This document shows positions 1,984 through 44,943 of a stretch of DNA of 57,969 bases, in pieces. The translations under genes and the position numbers were made by a program. Every line of letters starts with the position of its first letter. Within the stretch, counting starts at the first letter, position 1. Under the pieces are notes generated by a model. It searched no databases, was not told the DNA's origin, and was given only the letters and a program-made list of their open reading frames with translations. Source of the stretch: a virus; the IMG/VR virus record IMGVR_UViG_3300027740_000002, positions 1 to 57,969 of that record, one strand, 5' to 3'.

Positions 1984-2316
1984 ATGACCGAATCGAAAAT
2001 GCGAGAGTTGGACGAAGAAATGCACCGCATTTGTGGATGGGTGTTTGACGAATCCAGAAAGTGCTGGCATCGCGGAGGATTTTGGACAGCCGATTCTGGT
2101 AACTACACCACCGACCCCGCCGCTGCGATGGAGGTTTTAGAGAAGTGTTTCCCTGAGCTTGAAAGCATTGAAATTTGGAAATCGAGAGATGAGTTCTTTG
2201 TCTCATTTTCAGGGCGAAAATATGGGTGTTATGAAACTGCGATGCAAAAAACACTTCCGCTCGCCATCTGTGATTTTGCTAGGAGAAATTCAGACAAAAT
2301 AATCGCCCTCCAGTGA
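1984..2316 (+). CDS. Hypothetical protein, resembles phage ABA-sandwich-domain proteins
   Basis: ATG 1984. Pattern ELDEEMHRICGWVF...DPAAAMEVLEKC...LPLAICDFA recalls that small phage family. Recalled from memory, not searched. Confidence 0.4.
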   Translation: MTESKMRELDEEMHRICGWVFDESRKCWHRGGFWTADSGNYTTDPAAAMEVLEKCFPELESIEIWKSRDEFFVSFSGRKYGCYETAMQKTLPLAICDFARRNSDKIIALQ

Positions 2317-3923
2317 GTTGTTTCTGCCAGACCTCGAAACACGGTGACATCCTGAGCATTTTGCCGATGCTCTATCACGAATTTTTAACCTATGGGAGTA
2401 AACCGAATTTGGTTGTCTCAAAACAGTATCGCCAGATACCAGAGGCGATACCCTACATCAACCCGATCATTTACGACGGCGATCCTTTCGATCTTGAGGG
2501 GGCTATTAAATTCGCAAAGTCGAAATGTGACGATGTAAAAGTTACAAATCTTCACGGCATGGGCTTCAACTTCCAACATCGCCATCCGTCGTATCAATAC
2601 GATCAATGGGAGCGGGCTGGGTATTTGGACAAGTGGGATACGTTGCCTTTAATTCTGCCGCGTCAAATTAAAGGAAGCCTTCAAATCCCCGACGTGCCTT
2701 TCATCATCTTCGGCGACCATTCGCAAAGCTCTCCATTTTTCCATAAAGAGGATTTGGCGACCGCCTTGCAGGAAAACTTTCCGTCTTGGCTCATGGTGCG
2801 ACTTAGTTCTGTGCGGGCATCGCACCCGCTGGATTTATTGGCGCTCATGGACAAGGCGGATTTAATCATCTCGGTTGACTCCATGCAGCTTCACATGGGA
2901 AAGGCCACCACCACGCCGCTGATTGCACTCGTATCCGACCAGCCGACACGTTGGCAAGGCAGCGCCTACAGCAAGCGATTTGCCCTCCATTGTCGCTACG
3001 GTGACTTTCCGCGCCGCAAAGATGAGATTGTCCGCGTGGCGAAGAATTGCATTTCGGGGAAGCCTCAATTGGTGGCAACCCCGATGGACACCATGAAGGG
3101 TGGTTACAACCCGAGCATAATCCAGTTCGGAGATAAACCGATAAGCGTTCACAGGTACCACCCTAAACGCGCATGGCCGACCCGACTCGCGATCAATGAC
3201 GGCCAGACGAGCGACATTCTGTTTCCCGCCGAACTGGACGGCATCTCACTGGAGGACGCCCGCCTTTTCATTCATCAAGGCAAGCTGATGATTTCCTACG
3301 TGCTGGCGAAGTCGCGGCCCGTCAGCAACCAATTCCATTGCGTCATCGGTTACGGAATGCTCGTCCAGCGCGAAGGAAAGTGGCACGTCGAGAAGCACAT
3401 CCAACCCAAGTTCCGCAATAACGACTGGAGCGGCATGGTGAAAAATCTTTGCCCGTTTGAACACGACGGAAAGATTCATTTTATCTGGGGGAACTCACTC
3501 AACGAGCAAGTGGTTATCGAAGTTGACGGCGATAAGGTGACTCAGGAATACAGGTCGCCCGAACCCAAGTGGGCTTACGGCGAGATTCGCGGTGGCGCAA
3601 TCGTGAGGCACGGCGACAAGTTGCTGCGCCTCTTTCATTCGCGGACTGGCGCGGTTGGATACGGAGCGCATGGGACGTTTCAGTATCATGTGGGGGCTTC
3701 GTTAATGGAGGCGACTCCACCGTTTAAGACTGTGGCGGTGAGCAAGTGGCCGATCTTGAGCGGGGACGAAAGGTATGTGCCGGGATGTCATTCGTGGAAA
3801 CCGAATGTGGTATTTGTGGCCGGAGCAGTTAATGAGAGTTTCAGGCCGTTGCAGATTTCAATTGGAAGAAATGACAGCAGCAGTGAAATCGTGAAGCTCC
3901 AAGAGAGTGATTTGAATTTATGA
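2313..3923 (+). CDS. Two-domain glycosyltransferase: N-terminal GT9 (heptosyltransferase)-like domain plus a C-terminal beta-rich domain of uncertain family
   Basis: GTG start overlaps the previous stop (GTGA). Segment HPLDLLALMDKADLIISVDSMQLHMGKATTTPLIALVSD matches the GT9 C-domain signature. The C-terminal half (GGYNPSII..., GKLMISYV, GKIHFIWG, GGAIVRHGDKLL) looks like a beta-propeller. Confidence 0.5.
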   Translation: MSCFCQTSKHGDILSILPMLYHEFLTYGSKPNLVVSKQYRQIPEAIPYINPIIYDGDPFDLEGAIKFAKSKCDDVKVTNLHGMGFNFQHRHPSYQYDQWERAGYLDKWDTLPLILPRQIKGSLQIPDVPFIIFGDHSQSSPFFHKEDLATALQENFPSWLMVRLSSVRASHPLDLLALMDKADLIISVDSMQLHMGKATTTPLIALVSDQPTRWQGSAYSKRFALHCRYGDFPRRKDEIVRVAKNCISGKPQLVATPMDTMKGGYNPSIIQFGDKPISVHRYHPKRAWPTRLAINDGQTSDILFPAELDGISLEDARLFIHQGKLMISYVLAKSRPVSNQFHCVIGYGMLVQREGKWHVEKHIQPKFRNNDWSGMVKNLCPFEHDGKIHFIWGNSLNEQVVIEVDGDKVTQEYRSPEPKWAYGEIRGGAIVRHGDKLLRLFHSRTGAVGYGAHGTFQYHVGASLMEATPPFKTVAVSKWPILSGDERYVPGCHSWKPNVVFVAGAVNESFRPLQISIGRNDSSSEIVKLQESDLNL

Positions 3924-4354
3924 AACCATCACAAATGACAGAGATTGCCATAACATTGCTAGGGGGCTTAAACACGACTTTTGATGCCGATCCTCCCTGC
4001 AAGTCGGAAGATGCCTCCGAGCAGAAATATCTCGATAGATTCTCTGCGCTGGAATTGAGTGGCGACCAAGCATACGAAAAGGCGAAGTTTTTCAAGGCCG
4101 CTACAGCAGACAGCGTCCAGTTTTGCACCGCCGGACTTAGATACATGGAAGCGCCAGAGGTTTTTATGGCGGAGCAGCTTTACAGGTTTAAGAGGGTTAT
4201 TGAAATCGAAATTGGAAAAGCTTCCGAGGAAGCGAATTCTTTTAAGCTCGTGGCAAGAAACAAAGCAGAAGTTTACGGCTCGTTTCGCTTAATTATCACC
4301 CCGGAGCGATTCTTTCATTTTGAGCAAAAAAGCAATCTAGCTTTCATGATTTAG
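3920..4354 (+). CDS. Hypothetical protein
   Basis: 144-aa ORF, ATGA-coupled start. Confidence 0.55.
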   Translation: MKPSQMTEIAITLLGGLNTTFDADPPCKSEDASEQKYLDRFSALELSGDQAYEKAKFFKAATADSVQFCTAGLRYMEAPEVFMAEQLYRFKRVIEIEIGKASEEANSFKLVARNKAEVYGSFRLIITPERFFHFEQKSNLAFMI

Positions 4355-4393
4355 CATTGACATAATTATTTCAAGAAAGTAGGATTTGAGCCT

Positions 4394-4672
4394 ATGAGCG
4401 AACCCAAAGGCAATGAACCGGCGTTTCCAATTTCAACATCCGTTGTTGAGCGATTCCGTCCAGAATCAGGAATCGCCGACAAGCACTATCCGGGACAAAC
4501 CTGCAATGGCCTCTCCAAGCGCGAATACTTTGCGGCGATGCCGCTTACCGAGACAGAGCTTTCAATGCTGAAAGCTGCGTACGATTCCCAAACCCAGGAA
4601 AAATCTTACACCTTGCAATCGCTGCGATTTTTCCATGCCGACAGAATGATTGCGGAAAGTGAGAAGGTATGA
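4394..4672 (+). CDS. Hypothetical phage protein (REYFAA-motif family)
   Basis: 92 aa. The GLSKREYFAAMPL motif is common in small phage proteins. Confidence 0.55.
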   Translation: MSEPKGNEPAFPISTSVVERFRPESGIADKHYPGQTCNGLSKREYFAAMPLTETELSMLKAAYDSQTQEKSYTLQSLRFFHADRMIAESEKV

Positions 4673-5100
4673 GCAATCAAGCGTGCTGTTCACATTCCAA
4701 AGTTGACCGGATTACAATTGACCACCCGGGAGGCACTAAATCCGAACGGTGGATTTGTCCTGATTGCAGCACGAACTTCTGGCCGGAAGGAACGGACATG
4801 CACATTAAAAAGCGCCGGGATATGTTTGCGGCGGCGGCGTTGACGGGGATGCTGGCAAACGGCGCGACAACCCCGAGGGTTGGAGACTTGACCACGCCAT
4901 ACTGCGCTGAGGCGTCCGCTTGGATTGCTGAATTGCTGCTGCGAGAATTGGAGAAGAACACGCCAGCCATATTAAGCCCTCACGCGCTGGCGCTATGGGA
5001 TAAATTCAATCGTATTTGGGACGGCAAGGCCGTTGGCCCGGAGTACGATGAAGCCTACCGAAAAGCCTGCAAAACAATTCCAGAAGGAAGATTGCCATGA
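4669..5100 (+). CDS. Hypothetical protein with an N-terminal Cys cluster
   Basis: 143 aa, ATGA-coupled. Contains CCSH...CPDC and RRDMFAAAALTGML. Confidence 0.55.
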   Translation: MSNQACCSHSKVDRITIDHPGGTKSERWICPDCSTNFWPEGTDMHIKKRRDMFAAAALTGMLANGATTPRVGDLTTPYCAEASAWIAELLLRELEKNTPAILSPHALALWDKFNRIWDGKAVGPEYDEAYRKACKTIPEGRLP

Positions 5101-5243
5101 AAACAAATCAAGAAGAACTCAGGGTTGGAAGCCCAGTAAGCTACCGCAGATTCATCAGACTTGAGCGCATCAATCCGATGGGGCAACACGAAACTGTTGA
5201 GCTTGACCACGAAGCGTTGGACATGGTTGTTGAACTGCCATGA
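5097..5243 (+). CDS. Small hypothetical protein (48 aa)
   Basis: ATG 5097 overlaps the previous TGA. Translated by hand to TGA at 5241-5243. Below the track size cutoff. Confidence 0.35.
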   Translation: MKTNQEELRVGSPVSYRRFIRLERINPMGQHETVELDHEALDMVVELP

Positions 5244-5274
5244 AAGAAATGCTCGAATTGAATGCGAAGTTACC

Positions 5275-5880
5275 ATGAAGTGTTTTCAAAAAATAATCGA
5301 GTCCAACCCGAAGCAAGATGGGTGGTGTACTCTCAATAAAGCCATCACGTTGGCGGTTCTCGTTGGAACGCTGCGCCCAAAAGTTTCGATTGAGATCGGA
5401 ATCTATGCCGGAAAATCACTTACGGCTCTCGCGCTGGCCCATCAAGAGGTTGGTGGAAAAGTAATTGGAATTGATCCATGGAGCGTGAAGGATGCGGTTG
5501 TTGGCTACACCGGAGAAAACGAAAAGTTTTGGAACAATCAACCCAACTTAGATCGAGTGAAGGGGGAAACATTCAAGTGGATCGGACTTCTAGGGGTTGC
5601 TGCTTGGGTTGAGATTATTCAAAAGTCTTCGGACGACGTTCATCCGGTCAAATGCGGGCTGCTGCATGTGGATGGCCAGCATACGCTTCAGAGTTTGGTC
5701 GATGTTAAGAGGTTCACGTTCGAAATGGACTACGGCTCGGTCGTCGTGATGGATGACGTGAATTGGAAAAACGACGGCGAGGCGCATGTGCAAACTGCCG
5801 TGCAATGGCTTTTGGATAACGGCTGGGTGAAGCTTTACGATTTGGAGGAGGGGGCGGTTTTTCAGAGGGGAGTGATTTGA
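5275..5880 (+). CDS. Class I SAM-dependent methyltransferase (Methyltransf_24 / TylF-like, sugar-O-MT type)
   Basis: ATG 5275 in ORF 5161..5880. Motifs SIEIGIYAGKSLTALA, GKVIGIDPW and LLHVDGQH...VVVMDDV. Confidence 0.6.
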   Translation: MKCFQKIIESNPKQDGWCTLNKAITLAVLVGTLRPKVSIEIGIYAGKSLTALALAHQEVGGKVIGIDPWSVKDAVVGYTGENEKFWNNQPNLDRVKGETFKWIGLLGVAAWVEIIQKSSDDVHPVKCGLLHVDGQHTLQSLVDVKRFTFEMDYGSVVVMDDVNWKNDGEAHVQTAVQWLLDNGWVKLYDLEEGAVFQRGVI

Positions 5881-6998
5881 AAACCTTTCCCCTTACAGTC
5901 GGGATGACCCCGGCATTTCGTCTTGGCGGGAACGACGATTGGCTTTTGCTCGCCCAACTTCGATGTCTTTCCGAACAGGAGTTCAAGGACTTCGACGTTT
6001 ACTTGATTGATCCCCACTATCAGAAACGCAAGGGTTATATCCCAGAACTGGCGGAGAGATACAAACTTTCGATAACGCATTTGCCATACACGCCAAATCT
6101 GCGCGTGGCGAAGCGTTTGGATTGTGCGTGTTTTAATGCGCCGTATTTATTTTCAGAGTCTCCAAAGATCGTGCGCTATTCGTGCTGGCGGTTTGTGCGC
6201 CCCCAGTTCACCAAGATTTGTGTCGAGTCAAAAACGAGCGTTGATTTCTATTTTCACAACGTCGAAGCGCCAAACCGTGACTCCATGCACCCCGTAACGA
6301 ATCACGATGCTCGAATTTGGAATTTAGGTTCGGACGAAGTGAAGTGGGACTTGATGCCGACGAAGGCCGGTCAACCCGGAGCAAGCTGGGGTGAGTCCAG
6401 CGACGTTGACGCACCGCCAGCGCTGTTCCCGCTCAATTGTTATGGCAACTACATGGTGCCCCGCGAGGACTGGCTGAACATCAACGGTTGCGACGAGGCG
6501 ATATTCGCGTCCGAACATTGGGAGGATCAAGACTTTTGCCAGCGGGCTAACAACGCCGGAATGGTGGCGTGGCGAAAGTCGGGGCAGATGTATCGCTTTC
6601 ATCACCTATACGGAGGAGGGGCGGGGCGGGCAAACGAGACTCCCGACTTCGGCGAGTTCAAAAAGATTTGTCCGAAGTGTGAGGCTGTCGAGTACACGCA
6701 AAAGCCACAACGCCGGGAATTATTGCGGCGCATCCGAGCTAGAGAGATTTCAATTCCAGTTCCGCAGGTCTGGGCTTGCAACGAGTGCCTGTATTGCGGG
6801 CCGGTATTCCATGCCGACGAAGGCGAGTATCACCAGCATTTGAAGCGCAACAAGATTACGCGGGCGAATGTGATTCCGGGATTTATGCTTGGCCGCAACC
6901 TCCGCACCCTTGCCGCCGACATGGACGGCAAAAGCCTGCCGGAGAAGGTGGAGATTTTTAACAGGAGCTACGAAAACGAGAGGTATTATCAGGTATGA
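5877..6998 (+). CDS. GT-A fold glycosyltransferase (GT2 / Glyco_transf_7C-like) with a C-terminal Cys-rich tail
   Basis: 373 aa, TTG at 5877 or ATG at 5904. NCYGNYMVPREDWLNINGCDEAIFASEHWEDQDFCQRANNAG matches the GT2 C-terminal signature. Tail contains CPKC...CNECLYC. Confidence 0.5.
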   Translation: MKTFPLTVGMTPAFRLGGNDDWLLLAQLRCLSEQEFKDFDVYLIDPHYQKRKGYIPELAERYKLSITHLPYTPNLRVAKRLDCACFNAPYLFSESPKIVRYSCWRFVRPQFTKICVESKTSVDFYFHNVEAPNRDSMHPVTNHDARIWNLGSDEVKWDLMPTKAGQPGASWGESSDVDAPPALFPLNCYGNYMVPREDWLNINGCDEAIFASEHWEDQDFCQRANNAGMVAWRKSGQMYRFHHLYGGGAGRANETPDFGEFKKICPKCEAVEYTQKPQRRELLRRIRAREISIPVPQVWACNECLYCGPVFHADEGEYHQHLKRNKITRANVIPGFMLGRNLRTLAADMDGKSLPEKVEIFNRSYENERYYQV

Positions 6999-7180
6999 AA
7001 AAATTAAAAGTTCCGATTTGCGCTACCATCACAACCGCAATTTTAATTCCCGCTCTTTTTTGGATTGGGGGATTTGATTTCAATCAGCGTGGAGAAAGGG
7101 CTGTGCTGTGCGCCATTGCAACGGTAGTGTTTTCCGGGACGGTATTGTTACTTGCGACGGCTTTAAGGGACTTAGAATGA
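6995..7180 (+). CDS. Small membrane protein (two predicted TM segments)
   Basis: 61 aa, ATGA-coupled. Hydrophobic stretches ICATITTAILIPALFWIGG and VLCAIATVVFSGTVLLLATAL. Confidence 0.55.
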   Translation: MKKLKVPICATITTAILIPALFWIGGFDFNQRGERAVLCAIATVVFSGTVLLLATALRDLE

Positions 7181-7389
7181 TCCCACCCCTCACCAATGTC
7201 AAAAACGCCAAGTTAAACGCCGATGGCGGAGCGGAGGCATGTCCTGAGAATAGCTGCCGCTGCATCACTTGCGGCAAAGAGATGTCCGGTTTGTGGGAGA
7301 CTGTTTGCAGCAAATGTGGAGACACGTCTTGCTACGATCACTCATTTAATGATGGCGTCCATTGGTTCTGCACAAAACACAAGCCATGA
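7177..7389 (+). CDS. Cys-rich zinc-ribbon-like protein
   Basis: ATG 7177 overlaps the previous TGA. Sequence is MIPPLT...CPENSCRCITCGKE...CSKCGDTSCYDH...FCTKH. Confidence 0.5.
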   Translation: MIPPLTNVKNAKLNADGGAEACPENSCRCITCGKEMSGLWETVCSKCGDTSCYDHSFNDGVHWFCTKHKP

Positions 7390-7414
7390 CCCCCGCCTAA
7401 CCTACGATATAGAT

Positions 7415-7552
7415 ATGAAACACACGAAACACGAAAACAGAAAATCATTTCGCAAGTGGGCAATGCTCGGACAACGCATTGAAACCGAGGACATGACTCG
7501 CCTCAATAAACGCCGCGCCAAATCTAAATTCCCGTGGAATGTCGGAAGATGA
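7415..7552 (+). CDS. Small basic hypothetical protein (45 aa)
   Basis: ATG 7415 (MKHTKHENRKSFRKW...). Its stop overlaps the next ATG at 7549. Confidence 0.35.
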   Translation: MKHTKHENRKSFRKWAMLGQRIETEDMTRLNKRRAKSKFPWNVGR

Positions 7553-8142
7553 TCCCGCCACTAACAGATAGGATTTCGCTCCTTGAGCTAGTAAACTCCC
7601 GATTCCCCAACGGCGTCGGCGTGGAAATCGGAGTCGCGGGAGGTCACTTCACCAAGCAGATAGTGGCTACGTGGAAAAACTTTGAATCGCTTTACTGTGT
7701 TGACCCGTGGAAGCATTTCAAGGATGGGTACGATGATTCCTGCAACCTTTCTCAGCAAGTTCAAGATGAGAGGTTTCACCAGTTTGAAAAAGATTTCTAT
7801 GTAGAGACGCGCGTTAGGACTATGCGAATGATGTCTCACGAGGCTTGCAAGTGGTTTGGGCCAATCATTGACTTCATCTATCTCGACGCAAACCACAGCT
7901 TCGCCTCAGTCATGCAAGACCTCACTTGCTGGTGGCCGATCCTCAAACCCGGAGGCATCTTCGCCGGGCACGACTACTACGAAGGAAACCTCAAAGGCCA
8001 CGGCGTCAAGCTGGCCGTGGACGCCTTTGCCGCAGATCGTGGAATTGAGGTTCATAAGACGACCTCGGAGTTTTGCCGGGCAGAGGGGGTTTATGGGGCG
8101 GGGTGGGAGGGTTACAGTTTCGTGATGGAGAAGCTGGTATGA
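7549..8142 (+). CDS. Class I SAM-dependent methyltransferase (Methyltransf_24-like), paralogous in type to 5275..5880
   Basis: ATG 7549 (MIPPLT...). Motifs GVEIGVAGGHFT, LYCVDPW and IYLDANHSF...LKPGGIFAGHDY. Confidence 0.6.
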   Translation: MIPPLTDRISLLELVNSRFPNGVGVEIGVAGGHFTKQIVATWKNFESLYCVDPWKHFKDGYDDSCNLSQQVQDERFHQFEKDFYVETRVRTMRMMSHEACKWFGPIIDFIYLDANHSFASVMQDLTCWWPILKPGGIFAGHDYYEGNLKGHGVKLAVDAFAADRGIEVHKTTSEFCRAEGVYGAGWEGYSFVMEKLV

Positions 8143-37233: not shown

Positions 37234-39771
37234 GTGGCCGACACAACCCCATTCCGCCCCGCTACTATTTACGATTCAGTCAGCGTCCTGACGGGCGGCA
37301 TGATGAGTGGAATGTTGCCACTCCTAATCGAAAAAACCCAAGCCTCCTATCTTCAAAACGTGACCGTCCGCGACGGCTACGCTTCGCCCCGGCCTCCGTT
37401 TTCAAAAACGCATCTGACGATAGTTTATCCTTCGCCCGAAGTTCAGACCGCGATTGAGGAGGGATTATTTCAGGGCGCCATGCCGACGCCGTACCGTTCG
37501 GACTCCGGCGAGACTTCGCAAATCGCGGCCATCAGTGGCAAGCTCTACAAGTTTCTGACGGTGGGAAATGTCATCACGGTTTCCGACATCAGCATTCCGG
37601 GCGATCCTAATCCTGCGACGGCGACTCAAGCCTGGTTATGGCAATCGGAGAACTTCGTCATCGTCAACGACGGCATCAGTCTGCCGATTTTTTACGATGG
37701 TAATAGCAGTCGCAGGAGTTTCGGGCCAACGACACTGCTTGCTACTCAGGATGCCGGGTCGGTTGCAAAACCAACAGTGATTGGAAATCAGGTCACGCTG
37801 ACTTTACTCGCGCCCTACACCGGACCCTACAACGTCCCCGTTATTATTGATGGCGAGTTTTACCAACCAATCTCCAACGCGGCGGGCTATCTGGTTGACG
37901 CGACCAATTACACCGCGACTCCGGGCGAGGCGATAGCAGTTGGCGATCAAGTGATAATTCGGGGAGATGTTTTCGGGGTTCAAGCGACGAACCTGCCTCT
38001 TGGGGGCGTGGCAGGAACTCACGCTGCGGGCACATTGCTTTTAACACTCACATTGACGCTACCGTTCACCGGAGGCGCCGGAGACCTGGTAATTATTTTA
38101 GGAAAGTTATATGCGGCGGAATCAATCGGCCCCGGCAACTTCGTATCGGTCAGAAATACCCAGTCAGTTACGATTGCCCCCGGCGACAGCATCCCGGCGC
38201 ATACGATTTTAATCAAGGGCGCTTCGACAACCCCGAACGTCGTTGTTGGAAGCATCGCTCCCGCGAGCGCGACGGTTGCTCCCGCGCAAGGTGGCACGGT
38301 TCAACTCACTTTGGACACCGCTTACTCCGGCCCCGACAATCAGCAAGTTTTCATAAACAACAAGCAGTACACCATAAAAGCCGTTCCTGCTCCTCCGGGC
38401 GGCACGAGCTTAGTTGTAATCAATCTCTCCAACGTCACGTCGGGAAACTTAATCAGCGCGGTCATAATGTCCGTTCCTGAACTTCCTGCCGGTAGAATGG
38501 GCGCCTACGGTCACGGCCAAAACTGGGTTTCGCTCGTGGACGGAGTGAGCTTTCTTCCCAGCGACATTTCTGGCGGGCCATCCGGGACGGAAGCGTATCA
38601 ACGTCGTGATGCCGTTCTCAAGACGACCCTGACAACCTTCGGAGGCGGCAACTTCCGCATTCCGTCGGCAGGCGACACGATTACCTCAATGACGTTCGCG
38701 GCGATACTTGATGTTGCTTTAGGCCAAGGCCCGCTCATGGTTGGAACGGCCCGTTCAATTTTTAGCTGCATCGCTCCGGTCAACCCGGAAAACCTTGCGG
38801 CGATCATTCTAAAAGGCAGTCCGATTCTCACCGAAGCCCTCAAAGGTCGCGGCCCACTCGCCCAAAACTCGACGATCAACGTCAACAGCGACATTCAATT
38901 CAGGTCAACGGCAGGATTGGGTTCGCTGATTCTGGCCCGCCAACAATTCACGTCGTCGTTGAATGGCAACACCCCCATCTCTGAGGAAATGGTTCGCGTG
39001 TTCAACAAGGACGACCAGCAGCTATTGCCCTACGGCAGCGCAATCAATTTCGACAACCGCGTTTTATTCACCGCCTCTCCACAGGCATCCTCGCAGGGGG
39101 TATTCCACACAAGTTTGGTCGCAATGAATCTGGACGGCCTGAGCAGCCTGCGCGGAAAAGAGCCAGCCTGCTACGATGGCCAGTGGACGGGCTTGAACAC
39201 CCTGCAATTGACGCAAGGGCTATTCAACGGGACGAGCCGCGCCTTTGCGTTCACCTTTAACGTCACGCTGTCAAAAATCGAATTGTACGAGTTGCTTCCA
39301 ACTGGCGACCAACATTTCGACAATGGCAGCGTGCCCATTTCGGCCATCATCGAAACGGCTTCGATGTTCAATCAGGATGTCAAACCGCACGAGGTATTTT
39401 TGCAACTCCTGAACGGGGAGCTTGCGGTTGACCAGATTATCGGGACGGTCAGGTTTCAGGTGTTCTACAAGCCGGATCAATACGGTGGGTATGGCGACGA
39501 AACGTGCTGGGTGCCGTGGCATGACTTCACTATTTGCGCGGCGGCGGGATCGAAGCCACTTTACTTTCCAAGGATCGGATTTGGCGAGCCACAGAGCGCG
39601 ATTTGCAACGGCTCACTGGACGCGCCAGCAAGATTTGGCCGGACGTTGCAGGTAAGGCTGCAAATTTCCGGCTATTGGCGGATGTTGAATCTGAGAGTCG
39701 CTGCGGTGACGCAACCAGTGCCGCAGTTCCAGAGTCCGGTTTGCAATGTGAGTGAGACTGTTACAAGCTAA
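37234..39771 (+). CDS. Large tail structural protein (tail-tubular / nozzle-like candidate)
   Basis: 845 aa, GTG start 1 nt after the previous stop. Call rests on size and position in a podovirus-like module. No motif proof. Confidence 0.4.
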   Translation: MADTTPFRPATIYDSVSVLTGGMMSGMLPLLIEKTQASYLQNVTVRDGYASPRPPFSKTHLTIVYPSPEVQTAIEEGLFQGAMPTPYRSDSGETSQIAAISGKLYKFLTVGNVITVSDISIPGDPNPATATQAWLWQSENFVIVNDGISLPIFYDGNSSRRSFGPTTLLATQDAGSVAKPTVIGNQVTLTLLAPYTGPYNVPVIIDGEFYQPISNAAGYLVDATNYTATPGEAIAVGDQVIIRGDVFGVQATNLPLGGVAGTHAAGTLLLTLTLTLPFTGGAGDLVIILGKLYAAESIGPGNFVSVRNTQSVTIAPGDSIPAHTILIKGASTTPNVVVGSIAPASATVAPAQGGTVQLTLDTAYSGPDNQQVFINNKQYTIKAVPAPPGGTSLVVINLSNVTSGNLISAVIMSVPELPAGRMGAYGHGQNWVSLVDGVSFLPSDISGGPSGTEAYQRRDAVLKTTLTTFGGGNFRIPSAGDTITSMTFAAILDVALGQGPLMVGTARSIFSCIAPVNPENLAAIILKGSPILTEALKGRGPLAQNSTINVNSDIQFRSTAGLGSLILARQQFTSSLNGNTPISEEMVRVFNKDDQQLLPYGSAINFDNRVLFTASPQASSQGVFHTSLVAMNLDGLSSLRGKEPACYDGQWTGLNTLQLTQGLFNGTSRAFAFTFNVTLSKIELYELLPTGDQHFDNGSVPISAIIETASMFNQDVKPHEVFLQLLNGELAVDQIIGTVRFQVFYKPDQYGGYGDETCWVPWHDFTICAAAGSKPLYFPRIGFGEPQSAICNGSLDAPARFGRTLQVRLQISGYWRMLNLRVAAVTQPVPQFQSPVCNVSETVTS

Positions 39772-39776
39772 GTCCT

Positions 39777-41789
39777 ATGGCAACCTTCGATGCCCACACC
39801 AACCTGGCCCTCGCAACGGTAGCGGTGGCGCCGTCTCCTGCGCTATCAGGAACGAGTTTGATTATCACGGCTGGGTTCGTGTCGTTATTTCCGGCAGTGC
39901 CTTTTAATTGCACAGTCTGGCCATCAACAGTAAGCCCCACAGCCGCCAATGCCGAAATCGTCCGCGTAACCAATATCGTTGGCGACATCTTCACCATCGT
40001 CCGCGCCCAAGAGGGAACCACCGCAAAGGCCATCGCTTCCGGCTACCGCATCGGCAACACCGTTACAGCAAAAGTTTTCACCGACATTGAAAATCAGGCG
40101 ATCTTTTCCATCTCTGCCGGGACGACTAATGCGACCGGCAATCAGGTGGTTTTTGCAAACTCAAACGGCGTCACCTTTGGAGCGAGCAATAATTCCATCA
40201 CAGCAAGTTTTTCTGGCGGAGGAGGGGGCGCGGCAATTTCTGCCGGTGCGAATTCTCAAAGCACCGGCACTGTAATTTTCTCCAACAGCAACGGCGTCAC
40301 TTTCGGGCTATCCAATAACGGCGTGCTGACCGCCTCGGTCGGAACCGCCGCAGGGGGAAACTCCGTCAACTTTTCAGCAGGGACGACGAGCAACAATCTT
40401 GGCTCAATCGTGTTTTCCAATTCGGGAGGGGTCAGCTTCGGATTAAACGGCTCGACCTTGACCGCCAGTGTCGCGGCAGGCGGCGCAGCGGGTTCAATCT
40501 CGGCAGGAACTACGAATGTCGCTCTCGGAGAAGTCGTGTTCTCAAATTCCAATGGGGTTACTTTCGGACTCAATGGAAGCACTCTCACCGCCGCACATGA
40601 CGGACTGACCTCTCAAAGCAACCAAGCTTTCTCCGCGCAAGGAGGCAGCAGCGCGTTTCAGACGCTCAATTTTGCCAACTCCAACGGCATCACGTTTTCA
40701 AACAGCGGCGGATCGGTCGTGGCCTCGCACAACGGCCTGACCAGCCAGAGCAATCAGGCGGCATCGGCCTCCAACGGATCGTTCGCGTTTCAAACTTTGG
40801 GATTCAGCAACGCCAACAACGTGACGTTTGGAACGTCGGCGGGGAGCATAATTACAGCGAGCGTTGCTGCTGGCGGAGGAGGGTCGGTCAATTTCAGCGC
40901 GGGCACGACCTCCAACAATCTTGCTTCGATTGTGTTCAGTAATTCCAACGGGGTTACATTCGGATTGAATGGCTCAACAATTACCGCAAGCGCCGCCGGA
41001 GGAACAGCGGCGGCGGCCAGGGTCAGCTATTTTGAACCGTTTGCACTGATTTCAACCGCCACCGCGAATGTCAACAATTCACAGCTTTATCTGGCGCGAT
41101 TCAACCTCCCCTTTGAGATGAGCAGCGCGTATGCGAAAATGCTGGTTTCAGTTTCATCCAACACATCAAACATTGTAAGCAATGCGACCTTCGCGTCGGC
41201 GACCGCAGGAATTGGCCAATCCTATACTGGCTATCTTTATTCGCAAGGGACCGGCGCCAACTCAACCAATCTTGAACTTGTTACGTCAGCGTCAGCCCTG
41301 TATAGATTCGAGAACCAGTTGACCATCACAAACGGAAGCCAGTGGACGGTCACGCGCGCCGCCACTTGGCAGGCGGGAACAATCAGTTCATCCGGGAGCG
41401 AAAGCTACGCAATAAGCTCAAGCGTTTACAATTTAACCGTAACGACGGGACTGATGGCGTCAATTACAGGGTTTAAGTTTTTTGATCTTCCGATGGTTCA
41501 GGCCGCCATGACTGCGGGTCAGTATTGGGTTGGCGCCCGCATGTCCAGTGCCGCGACATCCTCCGGCGATGTATCCGCACTGATAAATCCCAGGGCCATG
41601 GTTACAAATATAGCCTTTGTCAACCAAGCTGACATTCGCAGCGTTGTAATGGGAAACGATGGAACGGCGAGCGATCCCGCTATTATGGGCGGCGGATTTT
41701 TCACCACTGATGGGGCGACCATTGCCTTGTCCAATTTAACCGTGCTGGGATCAAACCGGCGTCTGTATTTCAATTTGACCGGCCAATGA
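39777..41789 (+). CDS. Tail fibre / spike with seven tandem repeats of about 43 aa
   Basis: 670 aa. Fibre-type N-domain (AEIVRVTNIVGDIFTIVRAQEGTTA), then repeats of the form xSAGTTxxxLGxxVFSNSNGVTFGLNGSTLTAS. Confidence 0.6.
   Translation: MATFDAHTNLALATVAVAPSPALSGTSLIITAGFVSLFPAVPFNCTVWPSTVSPTAANAEIVRVTNIVGDIFTIVRAQEGTTAKAIASGYRIGNTVTAKVFTDIENQAIFSISAGTTNATGNQVVFANSNGVTFGASNNSITASFSGGGGGAAISAGANSQSTGTVIFSNSNGVTFGLSNNGVLTASVGTAAGGNSVNFSAGTTSNNLGSIVFSNSGGVSFGLNGSTLTASVAAGGAAGSISAGTTNVALGEVVFSNSNGVTFGLNGSTLTAAHDGLTSQSNQAFSAQGGSSAFQTLNFANSNGITFSNSGGSVVASHNGLTSQSNQAASASNGSFAFQTLGFSNANNVTFGTSAGSIITASVAAGGGGSVNFSAGTTSNNLASIVFSNSNGVTFGLNGSTITASAAGGTAAAARVSYFEPFALISTATANVNNSQLYLARFNLPFEMSSAYAKMLVSVSSNTSNIVSNATFASATAGIGQSYTGYLYSQGTGANSTNLELVTSASALYRFENQLTITNGSQWTVTRAATWQAGTISSSGSESYAISSSVYNLTVTTGLMASITGFKFFDLPMVQAAMTAGQYWVGARMSSAATSSGDVSALINPRAMVTNIAFVNQADIRSVVMGNDGTASDPAIMGGGFFTTDGATIALSNLTVLGSNRRLYFNLTGQ
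40107..41001 (+). repeat. In-frame tandem coding repeats (7 copies, 42-45 codons each)
   Basis: Repeat starts fall at about aa 113, 155, 200, 242, 286, 330 and 374 of the fibre protein. Confidence 0.8.
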
Positions 41790-42511
41790 AACCAGCGATA
41801 ATTTTGCCATATTCTCCGGGTCATCAGAACGCCGATTTGAAGAAGGCTAATGAACGGCTTTCGCAATCGAAGTCTTACAAGAATCTTTCGACGGTGATTG
41901 TCACACCGACGCGGGGAGGGAGGAGTTTGACGCCGAGATGGGTGAGCGCGATGCAGGGGTTGATGAGGCCGATGAATAATCCCACGGTCGGGCCTATCTT
42001 CATCTCAGGTTTGGAAGTAGGGGCAGCGTTTAACGCGGCGGTTGAAATGATTTTGGCGAGTCCTGTTTTGAGCAAGTTCAAGTACATGCTCACGGTCGAG
42101 GACGATACGGTGCCGCCACCTGACGGACTATTGAAGCTCTACGAGAGCATTGATAAATACGACATCGTTGGAGGTTTGTATTTCACGAAGGGCGAGGGAG
42201 GGCAACCAATGCTGTACGGCGATCCTGATGTTTCTCCGTTAAATTTTATCCCACAACTGGTCAAGGAAAACCAAGTCCAGCGAGTCAATGGAACTGGAAT
42301 GGGATTCTCTCTCATTCGCTTGGAATTGTTCAAGAAGTCAAAACCACCGTACTTTGAAACCAAGCAAAGTTGGGACCCGAATGTTGGAACTCAGTGTTAC
42401 ACTCAAGACCTTTTCTGGCACGAAAAGGTGATTCGATCCGGTGGGAAAATCGCCGTGGACAACCGGGTAAAATGCGCTCACCACGATGTCGAAAACGATT
42501 TTCTTTGGTAA
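41786..42511 (+). CDS. GT-A fold glycosyltransferase (GT2-like)
   Basis: 241 aa, ATGA-coupled to the fibre gene. LSTVIVTPTRGG, a DxD-type motif in YMLTVEDDTVPP, and IVGGLYF. Confidence 0.55.
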   Translation: MKPAIILPYSPGHQNADLKKANERLSQSKSYKNLSTVIVTPTRGGRSLTPRWVSAMQGLMRPMNNPTVGPIFISGLEVGAAFNAAVEMILASPVLSKFKYMLTVEDDTVPPPDGLLKLYESIDKYDIVGGLYFTKGEGGQPMLYGDPDVSPLNFIPQLVKENQVQRVNGTGMGFSLIRLELFKKSKPPYFETKQSWDPNVGTQCYTQDLFWHEKVIRSGGKIAVDNRVKCAHHDVENDFLW

Positions 42512-42513
42512 AT

Positions 42514-43065
42514 ATGGCAAAAATAAAAGCAATCAAACCACCAATCAAGCTCGACCTTGGCGCTGGCCGAAACCCTCAACCGGGATTTACCAGCGTGGAC
42601 CTGTTCGCCCCCGGAGTGGATGTTAAACTCGACCTCACCAAGTTCCCGTGGCCGTGGAAAGATGAGTCTGTCAGCGAAATCCATTGCTCTCACTTTGTTG
42701 AGCATCTCGACCAAGAGATTCGTCCGAGATTCTTTGAGGAGTGCTGGCGAATAATGAAGCCCGATGCGATCATGCGCGTCATCACTCCAAGTCACAAAAG
42801 TGAAAGGGCGCTGGGCGATTGCTCTCATAAATTTCCACCCGTCGTCGCGATGTTTTATCTCTACTTGCACAAAGGTTGGCGAGAGGCTAATAAATTAAAT
42901 TATGGATATTACGACTTGCGTTGTAACTTCGACAACCAATGCGGCCCCTCTGACATTTCCCCTGACTTCGCGAGCCGAAACCACGAGACTCAAATGTTCG
43001 CGCTTCGGCATTACCACGAAACGTATTCGGATATGTGGGCCGTTCTAACCAAGCGCCCGCTGTGA
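42514..43065 (+). CDS. Class I SAM-dependent methyltransferase (Methyltransf_11/23-like)
   Basis: ATG 42514. Contains KLDLGAGRNPQPGFTSVD, SEIHCSHFVEHL and RIMKPDAIMRVITP. Confidence 0.6.
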   Translation: MAKIKAIKPPIKLDLGAGRNPQPGFTSVDLFAPGVDVKLDLTKFPWPWKDESVSEIHCSHFVEHLDQEIRPRFFEECWRIMKPDAIMRVITPSHKSERALGDCSHKFPPVVAMFYLYLHKGWREANKLNYGYYDLRCNFDNQCGPSDISPDFASRNHETQMFALRHYHETYSDMWAVLTKRPL

Positions 43066-43069
43066 TTTT

Positions 43070-44899
43070 ATGTTCGGAGAATTTGAATTTGGCACAGGGC
43101 TGTTTGGCGACGGCGCAGGGGCGCCGATTCCGCCGACTCCAACGCCTGTCACTTTCCAACGCCTCCGCGTCGAATGCAAAACCAACGACTGCGCCGGAAT
43201 CGCGGCGGATGCCACTTTCTACTCACTTGACAACCCTCCTGCCGCCATCGCCGAAAACGAATCGTGCCTGACGAATGATTGCACTGGAATCGCACCCGAC
43301 GCCGAATCGTTCTCACTTCAAGACGCGCTCTTTTTTAACGGCACTCCAGTAACGGTGGTTATCACCTGTCCGGTTGGCGGGATCGGTTGCATTCCAGGCG
43401 AGCCGGTGGTTGTCACCTATCCTCCGGGGACATTTATTTTCCCCGACGTTCCCCAGACTCCCGGGCAACCCATCACTCTCTGCCTGAAAGGGTGTCAGTC
43501 CACGGTCTGTCGGACACTTCCCGCCGATGCTACCACGGCCCAGATCAACGCGGCGGTTGCGGCCATTATTCAAGAGGTTGCGACCCAGCAAGCCCAGTGC
43601 GATTTCCTGCCTCCAAGTTATCCATTCGGAACGTCAATTTCGCTTGGAGACTTCGATAGTTACGCCTGCATCAATTCTTCCTTCGGAGACACGATAGCGG
43701 CCTCCGTGAGTCCGGGCACAAGCTATCCAGTCACGTTTGGGATTATTGGAGGGGCGCTTCCGACCGGGATAACGATGATTGCCAATGTCGGAACTTTGGC
43801 GGCATTCGCTGGCACGCCAACCGTTGCTGGGAATTACAATTTCACATTGCGCGGCACGACCTCAGATGGCATTAGCGCAACGCGGGCGTATTCCATCAGC
43901 ATCGTGGGAATCACTACGTCGGCGACACTTCCTGACGCGACCATTGGCGAACCCTACTCCGTGACGTTGGCGGCGACGGGAATCAGTGGGACGTTGCTTT
44001 GGGGGATTGCATCGGGTTCGCTTCCACCCGGACTCACGATCAACACAGCAACCGGAGAAATCTCGGGCACACCAACGACCGACGATCCTTTTTCATTCGC
44101 CATCTTCGTTCAAAACAGCGATCAAGTTTGCGCCAAGGTGTTCACGCTGGACGTTGGAACGTGTTTGATAACCACGGCGTCACCGCTGCCGGATGGCACG
44201 GAGGATTCCCCTTACTCGACGACGCTCTCGGCAACCGACATTACCGGCACTTTGGTGTGGAGCATTATTGCTGGATCGTTGCCAACCGGGTTGACGCTCA
44301 ACGCGGCGACCGGAGAGATTTCAGGAACGCCAACAGTTGTCGAGACTTCCAATTTTACGACTCAAGTGGTAAATGGCAGCGGGAATACTTGCTCAAAGGC
44401 GTTCGCGCTGGAGGTCACCGCAGCCAGTGTTTGCCCTGATTGGACACAGCTTTCATGGAACGATAATGGGACCGACTATGCCATTGTTCAGTTTGGTGGA
44501 GGGGTCGCATCTTTTAACCCGGCAGGCGTTGGTATAACCGATTCTTTTTCTGCATCAGCATTTGCGGCAGCCAGTCCAGCATTTGCATTTGCGGCAAACA
44601 CCGGACGCATCACATACAACGGACCTGGATGCGACTGCATTTTTCACCTGGAGATTACTTCCGTTCCAAGTGCGGGGTCGGTTTCTGCATCTGCGGTTCA
44701 AAATGACAATCCTCCGGCCAACCTCCTTATCATTGATATGGTCGCACTCGGAGTAGGGACGCACGACCTGCCATTTACAATTCCAGACAGCGGCGGGGTT
44801 GACTCGCATATCAGTGTCCCTATGGCGGCGGATGCTAATCCGCCGGGAGGCGCACCACAGTCGCACATTTGGAGCGCGTCAATCAGCAATGCGCCATGA
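43070..44899 (+). CDS. Virion surface protein with a Cys-rich N-region and repeated putative Ig (He_PIG-like) domains
   Basis: 609 aa. Three units of the type LP.G..Y...L.ATG..G.L.W.I..GSLP.GLT.N..TGEISGTPT. Confidence 0.55.
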   Translation: MFGEFEFGTGLFGDGAGAPIPPTPTPVTFQRLRVECKTNDCAGIAADATFYSLDNPPAAIAENESCLTNDCTGIAPDAESFSLQDALFFNGTPVTVVITCPVGGIGCIPGEPVVVTYPPGTFIFPDVPQTPGQPITLCLKGCQSTVCRTLPADATTAQINAAVAAIIQEVATQQAQCDFLPPSYPFGTSISLGDFDSYACINSSFGDTIAASVSPGTSYPVTFGIIGGALPTGITMIANVGTLAAFAGTPTVAGNYNFTLRGTTSDGISATRAYSISIVGITTSATLPDATIGEPYSVTLAATGISGTLLWGIASGSLPPGLTINTATGEISGTPTTDDPFSFAIFVQNSDQVCAKVFTLDVGTCLITTASPLPDGTEDSPYSTTLSATDITGTLVWSIIAGSLPTGLTLNAATGEISGTPTVVETSNFTTQVVNGSGNTCSKAFALEVTAASVCPDWTQLSWNDNGTDYAIVQFGGGVASFNPAGVGITDSFSASAFAAASPAFAFAANTGRITYNGPGCDCIFHLEITSVPSAGSVSASAVQNDNPPANLLIIDMVALGVGTHDLPFTIPDSGGVDSHISVPMAADANPPGGAPQSHIWSASISNAP

Positions 44900-44943
44900 A
44901 CAATGATTGCCAGATTTGAGGAAAAGGAGTATGGAGTAAGCAG

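What the first reader, a model, noticed from the sequence alone, without database searches (positions are those of the whole stretch)
41786..43065. Second GT + methyltransferase pair translationally coupled to the repeat-rich tail fibre
Seen in sequence: the GT-A gene starts at an ATGA overlap with the stop of the 670-aa fibre gene, and a class I SAM methyltransferase follows 2 nt later. The next gene is an Ig-domain surface protein. The fibre repeats are packed with Asn/Ser/Thr, including many N-x-S/T tripeptides (NGST, NSN, NAT).

Inference: the enzymes may decorate the fibre or the Ig protein. That would be a receptor-binding structure carrying its own glycan-modifying enzymes in cis.
Basis: partly seen in the sequence, partly recalled or inferred. 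Interest (0 to 1): 0.7.

Follow-up and report, generated by a model that had tools for sequence, protein, structure and literature searches.

The report
Tail fibre with dedicated sugar-modifying enzymes
A phage tail-fibre gene is fused end-to-end with a sugar-adding and a methyl-adding enzyme gene, and the same trio recurs in about 190 other retrieved stretches from phages and tiny "CPR" bacteria, so the enzymes most likely decorate the fibre itself.

Summary
The 670-aa fibre gene (39777-41789) ends in an ATGA overlap with a 241-aa gene (41786-42511). A 183-aa gene follows 2 nt later (42514-43065), then a He_PIG Ig-domain protein.

The 241-aa protein models confidently as a GT-A glycosyltransferase with an invariant E-D-D motif. 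Its closest solved structure is STIV A197. The 183-aa protein is a class I SAM methyltransferase. The fibre's N-terminal domain matches the tail-fibre anchor of podophage GP4.

The N-x-S/T count (18) is what the amino-acid composition predicts (15.9 ± 3.3), so it is not a signal.

The main result is comparative. Of 75 viral loci retrieved with the fibre repeats alone, 61 of the 63 with enough downstream sequence carry the GT, and 57 of those also the MTase. Of 50 loci retrieved with the GT alone, 40 carry a fibre-family gene. No other gene family is widely shared. The Ig protein is conserved only in close relatives.

The trio, without the phage anchor domain, also sits among housekeeping genes in Patescibacteria chromosomes.

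Best reading (inferred, about 0.55): cytoplasmic glycosylation and sugar methylation of the fibre. This is a new variant of virus-encoded virion glycosylation.

The parts
39777..40106 (+). Fibre, N-terminal tail-anchor domain (aa 1-110)
   Evidence: AF2 pLDDT is about 90. The domain matches the 'putative tail fiber protein' of Ralstonia podophage GP4 (8jov_1) by fold (E 1.6e-4, TMt 0.67) and by sequence (E 2.7e-5). tblastn hits the N-termini of annotated tail fibre/tailspike genes of cultured phages.
40107..41051 (+). Fibre shaft: 7 repeats of about 42 aa (aa 111-425). Consensus is ..SAGTT..G.VVF-S-N-S-N-G-V-T-F-G-L-N-G-S-T-L-T-A-S
   Evidence: In 800 unique units from related loci the conserved positions are F 89%, N 91%, N 97%, S/T 97%, F 96%, G 89%, T 88%, A 82% and S 86%. 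The AF2 monomer has low confidence here (pLDDT 40-55); a shaft that only folds as an oligomer is one possible reason.
41052..41789 (+). Fibre C-terminal beta-rich domain (aa 426-670) and stop codon
   Evidence: AF2 pLDDT is 70-85 with long beta strands. Fold matches are weak, to jelly-roll/lectin-like folds and the Bxb1 tail tip. Homologous domains lie upstream of the GT in 53/80 genome loci and 62/125 viral loci.
41786..42511 (+). GT-A fold glycosyltransferase, 241 aa, soluble; start overlaps the fibre stop (ATGA)
   Evidence: There is no hydrophobic segment of TM strength. It is the most conserved gene of the structural block: 68-70% identity in relatives where the neighbouring genes are 32-62%.
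42514..43065 (+). Class I SAM-dependent methyltransferase, 183 aa, 2 nt after the GT
   Evidence: It follows the GT within 110 nt in 39 of 57 fibre-seeded loci. The GT and MT distance matrices correlate with r = 0.83.
43070..44899 (+). He_PIG Ig-domain protein, 609 aa. It is a neighbour, not part of the conserved module
   Evidence: Pfam He_PIG, E 3.4e-29, 3 copies. It is found only in the closest relatives (L003, L004, L005, L053, L082).
2313..8142 (+). Context: the first sugar/methyl enzyme cluster. It holds 2313-3923 (GT9-like N-terminus), 5161-5880 (Methyltransf_24), 5877-6998 (GT-like) and 7534-8142 (Methyltransf_24)
   Evidence: Pfam. These are different families from the fibre-linked pair. 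Not analysed further.

Best explanation
The fibre gene, the GT and the MTase form one three-gene cassette. They lie in a run of same-strand genes (36330-47300) separated by at most ~45 nt, and the ATGA overlap and the 2-nt gap mean the enzymes are probably translated wherever the fibre is translated.

Proposed mechanism, all steps inferred:
1. The soluble GT-A enzyme has a DXD-type metal site (E105-D106-D107) and a conserved C-terminal His232. It takes a nucleotide-sugar from the host pool.
2. It transfers the sugar in the cytoplasm onto the fibre. The most likely acceptors are the conserved Ser/Thr of the ~42-aa repeat (the S/T in N-G-V-[ST]-F-G, or the T-A-S motif).
3. The class I SAM methyltransferase then O-methylates that sugar. 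Chlorovirus A064R does this on the capsid glycan.
4. The product is a glycan-coated, methyl-capped fibre shaft.

What is shown: the gene anatomy, the folds and motifs, the tail-fibre identity, and the very strong reciprocal co-occurrence of the three genes.

What is inferred: the acceptor, the donor sugar, the order of the reactions, and the benefit to the phage (stability, shielding or adhesion).
For: 1. Anatomy: ATGA overlap and a 2-nt gap.
2. Enzymes look active. The GT-A model has pLDDT 85.6 and its best PDB match is the viral GT A197. PTRGGR, EDD, QDL and H232 are invariant in 36 homologues. The MTase SAM motifs are conserved in 40 homologues.
3. Reciprocal linkage. Of 75 IMG/VR loci seeded only with the fibre repeats, 61 carry the GT downstream on the same strand. 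Twelve of the 14 without it have under 1.3 kb of downstream sequence, giving 61/63 informative loci at a median 38% GT identity. Of 50 loci seeded only with the GT, 40 have a fibre-family ORF.
4. In 21 of 60 loci the fibre stop lies within 60 nt of the GT start.
5. Clustering all ORFs of 128 viral loci finds only these three families widely shared, in 117, 93 and 78 loci. The next real family is in 14 or fewer. The contigs range from about 15 kb to 448 kb.
6. The GT is the best-conserved gene of the block (68-70% identity versus 32-62% for the other genes). That fits a conserved acceptor such as the repeat better than variable host glycans.
7. The trio recurs in Patescibacteria chromosomes without the phage anchor domain and without phage hallmark genes nearby. 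The link therefore does not depend on a virion or on an infection.
8. Precedents. PBCV-1 A064R combines a GT-A domain with a class I MTase that methylates the capsid glycan (PMC9614988). Mycobacteriophage virions are O-glycosylated by phage enzymes (as described in PMC12619734 and PMC11652166). The GT family is homologous to the cluster J phage Optimus gp12, which sits next to the capsid gene (hhalign 96.7%; context and PMC3706429).
Against: - There is no direct evidence of a glycan on the fibre.
- Co-occurrence shows a functional link, not that the fibre is the acceptor.
- GT-A structural neighbours include polysaccharide and glycolipid enzymes (KfiA, B4GALNT1, Mnn9) as well as protein-modifying ones (LH3, COLGALT1, ppGalNAc-Ts), all at TM about 0.5.
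- N-x-S/T is not enriched.
- The conserved Asn could simply be structural, for example in turns.
- Two fibre-seeded loci (L064, L123) have more than 9 kb of downstream sequence and no GT.
- A gene directly downstream of a fibre gene is also the classical position of a fibre-assembly chaperone.
- The Mantel correlations are also expected from shared ancestry.
Confidence: 0.55

Rival explanations
1. Host-surface modification. The GT and MTase alter a host envelope glycan, such as an O-unit, capsule or wall polymer built on the cytoplasmic face, that is the fibre's receptor. This would mask the receptor on infected cells or debris. The enzymes travel with the fibre gene because enzyme and receptor specificity must match, as with seroconversion genes placed next to tailspike genes.
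For: - The enzymes are linked to a receptor-binding protein.
- GT-A neighbours include polysaccharide-building enzymes: KfiA, heparosan and hyaluronan synthases, TarP.
- From general knowledge, P22, epsilon15 and Sf6 carry O-antigen-modifying genes near their tailspike genes.
Against: - The enzymes are soluble, with no TM segments, and there is no flippase or GtrA/GtrC-like partner in the cassette.
- They sit inside, and are probably translationally coupled to, the structural-gene block rather than an early or lysogeny module.
- The conserved part of the partner protein is the repeat shaft, not a variable receptor-binding tip.
- The GT is more conserved than any neighbouring gene, across phages of very different genome size.
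- The trio also occurs in cellular chromosomes, where receptor masking makes no sense.
Confidence: 0.15
2. Assembly factor. The GT-fold protein, with or without the MTase, acts mainly as a fibre folding or trimerisation chaperone. It occupies the position typical of tail-fibre assembly genes. Any enzymatic activity is secondary, transient or lost.
For: - The gene lies immediately downstream of the fibre gene and is probably translationally coupled to it. The same tight juxtaposition is seen in 21/60 loci.
- The AF2 monomer cannot fold the shaft, so help with assembly is plausible.
Against: - The catalytic signatures are invariant or nearly so: EDD, PTRGGR and H232 in the GT, and the SAM motifs in the MTase. 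This is not expected for a non-enzymatic chaperone.
- In 27 of 60 loci the GT lies more than 500 nt from the fibre.
Confidence: 0.1
3. Another target. The pair modifies a different molecule: another virion protein (capsid, the Ig protein), phage DNA, or a small molecule. Its linkage to the fibre would then be only inherited gene order.
For: - The window has a second sugar/methyl enzyme cluster next to the putative capsid region.
- The distant homologue Optimus gp12 lies next to the major head protein gene.
- Virus-encoded GTs that modify DNA are known (cited in PMC12619734).
Against: - No other gene family co-occurs with the pair. The Ig protein is confined to close relatives.
- No nucleotide hydroxymethylase or similar enzyme was found among the replication-module ORFs scanned.
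- The MTase lacks a conserved (D/N/S)PP(Y/F/W) motif.
- From general knowledge, the T4-type DNA glucosyltransferases are GT-B fold, whereas this enzyme is GT-A.
- There are no PADLOC hits.
Confidence: 0.1

Closest known systems
Mycobacteriophage virion glycosylation (Freeman et al. 2023, as described in PMC12619734 and PMC11652166) and the cluster J glycosyl-/methyl-transferase block (PMC3706429)
   Same: - Phage-encoded soluble GTs, together with SAM MTases in cluster J, are inserted in the virion structural gene block.
- The GT here is a remote homologue of Optimus gp12 (hhalign 96.7%, E 4.5e-10).
- In both cases the proposed product is O-glycosylated virion proteins.
   Different: - The reported targets there are the C-termini of the capsid and tail-tube subunits, not a repeat-rich fibre.
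- Cluster J has 5-6 GTs plus a kinase, whereas this is a minimal GT+MT pair.
- The MTase here is unrelated to Optimus gp14.
- I could not read the primary paper, so whether cluster J virions themselves were shown to be glycosylated was not checked.
Chlorovirus PBCV-1 A064R/A061L (PMC9614988)
   Same: A virus-encoded, cytoplasmic GT-A domain (DXD, Mn2+) works with class I SAM methyltransferases that O-methylate the terminal sugar of a virion-protein glycan.
   Different: - It is a eukaryotic giant virus.
- Its glycans are N-linked, on the major capsid protein.
- The domains are fused in one 638-aa protein, and many more GTs are involved.
- There is no detectable sequence relationship. PBCV-1 Q98454 is only a structural neighbour.
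STIV A197 (PDB 2c0n)
   Same: It is the closest solved structure (Foldseek E 2.5e-10, TMt 0.71, 20% identity; phmmer E 0.14). It is a minimal viral GT-A protein of about 200 aa.
   Different: It comes from an archaeal virus. I found no tool evidence for its substrate, and it has no adjacent MTase or fibre context that I know of.
Bacterial adhesin plus dedicated cytoplasmic glycosyltransferase pairs (AIDA-I/AAH, TibA/TibC, HMW1/HMW1C, serine-rich-repeat adhesins); from general knowledge
   Same: A repeat-rich, Ser/Thr/Asn-rich surface fibre is encoded next to a dedicated soluble GT that modifies it in the cytoplasm before export or assembly. This is also the likely logic of the Patescibacteria copies of the trio.
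   Different: Those GTs belong to other families (heptosyltransferase-like, GT41, GT-B). They have no obligatory MTase partner. No homology was detected here.
Phage serotype-conversion modules (gtrABC, O-acetylases next to tailspike genes); from general knowledge
   Same: Sugar-modifying genes are placed next to the receptor-binding protein gene.
   Different: Those are membrane proteins acting on undecaprenyl-linked sugars and are expressed from lysogens. The proteins here are soluble and embedded in the structural-gene block.

Membership tests
GT-A fold nucleotide-sugar glycosyltransferase (GT2-like) | Single Rossmann-like alpha/beta/alpha domain with the GT-A topology | tested here: met
   The AF2 model has pLDDT 85.6 and pTM 0.83. 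184 PDB chains score E<=1e-3; every listed hit with a named activity is a glycosyltransferase. BFVD hits are viral GT-A proteins.
GT-A fold nucleotide-sugar glycosyltransferase (GT2-like) | DXD-type metal/nucleotide-binding motif after beta-4 | tested here: met
   E105-D106-D107 is invariant in 36 homologues and directly follows strand 100-104.
GT-A fold nucleotide-sugar glycosyltransferase (GT2-like) | Score above the Pfam Glycos_transf_2 gathering threshold | tested here: not met
   17 bits against a 23.3-bit cut-off. There is no NCBIfam hit. It is therefore a divergent GT-A family (phrog_1574), not a curated GT2 member.
GT-A fold nucleotide-sugar glycosyltransferase (GT2-like) | Sugar-transfer activity, donor and acceptor | not testable with these tools
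   Needs biochemistry.
Class I SAM-dependent methyltransferase (Methyltransf_11 type) | Motif I (GxGxG-like), an acidic residue at the end of beta-2, and a score above the Pfam threshold | tested here: met
   LDLGAG is present, with G18 invariant. D29 is invariant. Methyltransf_11 scores 21.8 against 21.2 bits, which is marginal. The family profile matches PDB MTase 3dli at 7.8e-7. Many homologues carry PF08241.
Class I SAM-dependent methyltransferase (Methyltransf_11 type) | Substrate class (sugar O-, protein, lipid or DNA) | not testable with these tools
   Only a negative hint is available: there is no conserved DPPY-type motif.
Podovirus tail fibre (GP4-type N-terminal anchor) | N-terminal domain homologous to a fibre anchor seen on a tail in a solved virion | tested here: met
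   8jov_1 'putative tail fiber protein': Foldseek E 1.6e-4, rmsd 2.3 A over 104 columns; phmmer E 2.7e-5. tblastn also hits annotated tail fibres.
Podovirus tail fibre (GP4-type N-terminal anchor) | Presence in the virion as a trimeric fibre | not testable with these tools
   The AF2 monomer model of the shaft has low confidence.
Phage-encoded virion glycosylation system (mycobacteriophage type) | Phage GT genes inside the structural module, homologous to those of mycobacteriophages | tested here: met
   Location. Homology to Optimus gp12. Optimus gene context.
Phage-encoded virion glycosylation system (mycobacteriophage type) | Glycan covalently attached to a virion protein | not testable with these tools
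   Requires mass spectrometry or glycan staining.
Cytoplasmic N-glycosyltransferase system (HMW1C/NGT, N-x-S/T sequons) | GT41 GT-B enzyme and sequon-rich acceptor | tested here: not met
   The enzyme is GT-A fold. The sequon count equals the composition expectation. The conserved Asn are not in sequons in about 70% of units.
Serotype-conversion gtrABC-type module | Membrane-embedded GtrA/GtrB/GtrC proteins | tested here: not met
   The highest 19-residue hydropathy is 1.49 for the GT and 0.74 for the MTase. There are no TM segments and no such partners in the cassette.
Known anti-phage defence or counter-defence enzymes (PADLOC) | Match to a PADLOC model | tested here: not met
   No hits for the GT, the MTase or the four enzymes of the first cluster.

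The most novel reading that the evidence does not exclude
The fibre + GT-A + MTase trio may be an ancient, mobile 'glyco-fibre' cassette shared between two settings. One is the cell-surface fibrils of Patescibacteria (CPR bacteria, including Saccharibacteria). The other is the tail fibres of many unrelated phages, with genomes from about 40 kb to over 400 kb. Phages would have fused the cellular repeat/C-domain protein to a tail anchor, or cells would have domesticated a phage fibre. Either way the two enzymes were kept, because the fibre only works when glycosylated and methylated. If so, this would be, as far as my searches show, the first dedicated tail-fibre glycosylation system. It would also be a possible genomic marker for phages of CPR bacteria.
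Probability: 0.35. Interest if true: 0.8.

Novelty: new variant of a known kind. Interest (0 to 1): 0.62.

Why it matters
Receptor-binding fibres decide phage host range, and they are normally treated as bare proteins. A widespread cassette in which the fibre carries its own glycosylating and methylating enzymes would have three consequences:
1. Fibre surface chemistry in these phages would be partly non-templated. That matters for host-range prediction, structure prediction and phage engineering.
2. Phage-encoded virion glycosylation, so far shown on mycobacteriophage capsids and tail tubes, would extend to fibres and to a very large uncultured group. The databases hold more than 1100 GT homologues and more than 2200 fibre homologues.
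3. The same trio in Patescibacteria chromosomes offers a testable entry point to the almost unknown surface biology of CPR bacteria, and perhaps to the phages that infect them.

The claim can be tested by co-expressing three genes in E. coli.

Tried and rejected
- N-x-S/T enrichment: rejected. Observed 18, expected 15.9 +/- 3.3.
- Ig protein as specific partner: rejected. It is not co-conserved.
- Curated family membership of the GT: Pfam is below threshold and NCBIfam gives nothing. Its identity rests on the structure model.
- Near-identical known phage: none (megablast against 50,697 phage records).
- PHROGs and Pfam on the putative terminase, portal, capsid and the 1649-aa protein: no hits. 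PDB sequence searches on the terminase and portal candidates: nothing. Those labels are therefore unverified guesses, and I use them only as context.
- Promoter and terminator scans around the operon: counts are not above the shuffled expectation. They say nothing for or against co-transcription.
- PADLOC: no hits.
- MTase versus Optimus gp14: not homologous, so only the GT links to cluster J phages.
- AF2 of the whole fibre: the shaft has low confidence, so no statement on repeat architecture or exposed acceptor residues is possible.
- Prophage explanation for the Patescibacteria copies: checked in L142 and L134 and in 132 neighbouring proteins from 22 large contigs. The neighbours are housekeeping and surface-domain families, with no terminase, portal, capsid or integrase among the listed families. 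L134 does have a 1588-aa ORF downstream, so a degraded prophage cannot be excluded there.
- The primary paper on mycobacteriophage virion glycosylation (PMC10527164) is not held. It is cited only through papers that describe it.
- Full-text searches for a glycosylated tail fibre with a dedicated phage GT found nothing.


Full report
**1. Observation**

- The 670-aa ORF 39777-41789 ends ...CAA TGA. The ATG of the next ORF lies at 41786, giving an ATGA overlap.
- That 241-aa ORF ends at 42511.
- An ATG at 42514, 2 nt later, opens a 183-aa ORF ending at 43065.
- A 609-aa ORF starts at 43070.

Both start codons are backed by the N-termini of many homologues (alignments A1 and A2). The longer TTG-initiated ORF at 42370 is not supported.

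The 609-aa protein has three He_PIG Ig-like domains (E 3.4e-29).

A first sugar/methyl enzyme cluster does exist at 2313-8142. It contains two Methyltransf_24 proteins, a GT-like protein and a GT9-like protein. 'Second pair' is therefore accurate.

**2. What the three proteins are**

*GT.* Curated libraries barely recognise it.
- Pfam GT2 scores 17 bits, below its 23.3-bit threshold, and NCBIfam finds nothing.
- It does hit phrog_1574 (7e-12) and a PHROG glycosyltransferase family.

The structure model settles its identity.
- An AlphaFold2 model built on 36 homologues is confident (pLDDT 85.6, pTM 0.83).
- It is a GT-A fold. The best solved match is A197 of the archaeal virus STIV (E 2.5e-10, TM 0.71 on the target).
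- The next matches are collagen hydroxylysine glycosyltransferases (LH3, COLGALT1), mimivirus R699, KfiA and polypeptide GalNAc-transferases.
- In the viral structure library the neighbours are GT-A proteins of uncultured phages, PBCV-1 and Sulfolobus filamentous virus.

PTRGGR (41-46), E105-D106-D107 directly after beta-4, QDL (207-209) and H232 are invariant. This is what an active metal-dependent GT-A enzyme should look like.

*MTase.* The evidence for a class I SAM methyltransferase is as follows.
- It has LDLGxG, with G18 and D29 invariant.
- It has SHFxEH and ECWRxLKPGG.
- It just passes Methyltransf_11.
- Its family profile finds PDB methyltransferases (3dli, 7.8e-7).

Neither enzyme has a membrane segment.

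*Fibre.* It has three parts.
- Residues 1-110 fold confidently. They match the 'putative tail fiber protein' bound to the tail of podophage GP4, both by fold and by sequence (2.7e-5). They also match the N-termini of annotated tail fibres and tailspikes of cultured phages.
- Residues 111-425 are seven ~42-aa repeats.
- Residues 426-670 form a beta-rich domain (pLDDT 70-85) with only weak fold matches.

'Tail fibre' is therefore supported.

**3. The sequon argument fails**

The fibre is rich in N, S and T (35% together) and contains 18 N-x-S/T tripeptides. Shuffling the same residues gives 15.9 +/- 3.3 (p = 0.30).

Across 800 unique repeat units from related loci, the conserved core is F-[SA]-N-[SA]-N-[GN]-[VI]-[ST]-F-G ... 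[IVL]-T-A-S. The two near-invariant Asn are not followed by S/T at +2 in about 70% of units.

**4. The comparative result**

The GT has more than 1100 homologues, almost all 241 aa long. Many lie on 56-58-kb contigs, the same size as this window. The fibre has more than 2200 homologues. None carries an informative name.

*Seeding with the GT.* I retrieved 46 IMG/VR loci with the GT, to which 4 loci were added.
- The MTase is next to the GT almost everywhere.
- All other window genes are undetectable except in the closest relatives.
- In those relatives the GT is the best-conserved gene: 68-70% identity, against 32-37% for the putative terminase and 43-61% for the neighbours.

*Seeding with the fibre.* I then seeded independently with the fibre repeat region only, which gave 75 loci.
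- 61 loci carry the GT downstream on the same strand, at a median 38% identity.
- 12 of the 14 without it have under 1.3 kb of downstream sequence.
- Only L064 and L123 have more than 9 kb downstream and no GT.
- The informative fraction is therefore 61/63.
- In 21 of 60 loci the fibre stop is within 60 nt of the GT start.
- In 39 of 57 loci the MTase match starts within 110 nt of the GT end. Where the gap is larger, an HNH endonuclease gene is often inserted.

*Other tests.*
- Conversely, 40 of the 50 GT-seeded loci contain a fibre-family ORF. Some of the rest have divergent repeats, for example 'GGSNISLS' in L028.
- An all-against-all clustering of every ORF in the 128 viral loci finds just three widely shared families: fibre (117 loci), GT (93) and MTase (78). 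The next genuine family is in 14 or fewer loci.
- Host contigs range from about 15 kb to 448 kb. The trio therefore sits in very different phages.
- GT and MTase distance matrices correlate strongly (Mantel r = 0.83). GT and the fibre C-domain correlate moderately (r = 0.45). Shared ancestry would also produce such correlations.

**5. The trio outside phages**

A scan of one genome per species found 80 loci. About 70 are in Patescibacteria MAGs (Saccharibacteria, Paceibacterota, Parcubacteria), including contigs of 0.4-1.2 Mb.
- GT and MTase are together in 77 of 80 loci.
- A protein with the fibre's C-terminal domain, and usually divergent repeats ('GGNNITLSQNGNAITIS'), lies just upstream in 53 of 80 loci.
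- None has the phage N-terminal anchor.
- These proteins start either with a membrane anchor or with a conserved 'MTYLPPxNGGRIN'.

The neighbours are housekeeping genes plus surface-domain proteins. The housekeeping genes include release factor, FtsX/ABC, SHMT, pyruvate kinase and an ABC-ATPase. The surface-domain proteins carry Fn3-like, Big or WxL-interacting domains. No terminase, portal, capsid or integrase family appears among the listed families for 132 neighbouring proteins from 22 large contigs.

In these bacteria the trio therefore looks like a chromosomal surface-fibre locus, not a prophage. One locus, L134, has a giant ORF downstream and could be a remnant.

**6. Interpretation**

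The data show a three-gene functional unit with high confidence (about 0.8). What the enzymes act on is inferred. I favour modification of the fibre itself (0.55) for five reasons.
1. The conserved partner is the repeat shaft plus C-domain, not a variable receptor-binding tip.
2. The GT is more conserved than everything around it, which suggests a conserved acceptor.
3. The link survives in cells, where there is no infection to protect against.
4. The enzymes are soluble and made with the structural proteins.
5. There are precedents. Chlorovirus A064R joins a GT-A domain to a class I MTase that O-methylates the terminal rhamnose of the capsid glycan (PMC9614988). Mycobacteriophage capsids and tail tubes carry O-glycans made by phage enzymes (PMC12619734, PMC11652166). 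Cluster J mycobacteriophages have a GT/MTase block between the capsid and connector genes (PMC3706429; Optimus), and the GT gp12 of that block is a remote homologue of this one.

The rivals are host-receptor masking (0.15), a mainly chaperone role (0.10), and another target such as DNA or another virion protein (0.10). The remainder is unassigned. Whether the MTase methylates the sugar or the protein cannot be decided. A paper on host-dependent tail-protein methylation (PMC13445384, abstract) shows that the second option is not absurd.

**7. Novelty and verdict**

Virus-encoded virion glycosylation and adhesin-with-dedicated-GT pairs are both known, so this is not a new kind of system.

What appears new is a compact, very widespread cassette that ties a GT-A enzyme and an MTase specifically to a repeat-rich tail fibre, and its sharing with CPR bacterial chromosomes. 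Full-text searches found no description of it.

I rate it a new variant of a known kind, with interest 0.62. Its interpretation is right about the fibre, wrong about the Ig protein, and wrong to lean on N-x-S/T.

Noticed in passing
Genome loci L128-L207 (e.g. L142:7085-11351, L134:8248-11245): Patescibacteria/Saccharibacteria chromosomes carry the same repeat/C-domain protein + GT + MTase trio without the phage anchor domain. It sits among housekeeping and surface-protein genes. The fibre-like proteins have two N-terminal types: a membrane anchor, or a conserved 'MTYLPPxNGGRIN'.
   Followed up: partly
window 2313-8142: This is a separate sugar/methyl enzyme cluster upstream of the putative capsid region. 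It holds a 536-aa protein with a weak GT9 (heptosyltransferase) match, two Methyltransf_24 proteins and a 373-aa GT-like protein with CxxC pairs. The phage thus encodes at least 3 GT-like and 3 MTase-like proteins.
   Followed up: partly
window 11266-12884: Two adjacent ORFs (11266-11847 and 11852-12589) share a nearly identical ~45-aa N-terminus (MAC.L..IQ.AAC.SGI.KEQSKIKLLQ.IAQLTCEA.EGGGG). The second ends in an Arg/Gly-rich tail and overlaps ORF 12441-12884 in another frame. This suggests a frameshift, either programmed or an assembly error, in a fibre-like protein.
   Followed up: no
Related loci L014, L017, L037, L041, L061, L121 (about 720-850 nt after the GT start): A small HNH endonuclease gene is inserted between the GT and the MTase in several phages. 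This explains the larger GT-MT gaps.
   Followed up: partly
window 36330-37232: The first gene of the fibre block starts with a Cys-rich stretch and five collagen-like G-X-Y triplets (GTAGSDGAAGAAGADG). The rest is Ala/Thr/Gly-rich, with no family match.
   Followed up: no
window 33826-35712 (-), 55066-57417, 8776-10161, 47456-52405: The presumed terminase, portal, capsid and 1649-aa giant protein give no Pfam, PHROG or PDB sequence hits. A relative's giant protein carries LPD38, and another relative has a SU10-type portal after the GT-MT pair. The lineage is very distant from cultured phages.
   Followed up: partly
L003:3639-5423: A close relative (GT 70% identical) has a Gad2-domain gene and a GIY-YIG gene inserted between the homologues of 36330 and 37234. 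These are mobile or defence-type insertions inside the structural block.
   Followed up: no
L052 (MW202524.1, Manatee Spring podovirus) 482-9313: An annotated uncultured podovirus carries a 35%-identical GT flanked by two MTases. It is preceded by three more GT genes and a 598-aa hypothetical protein, so it has a larger version of the enzyme set.
   Followed up: no
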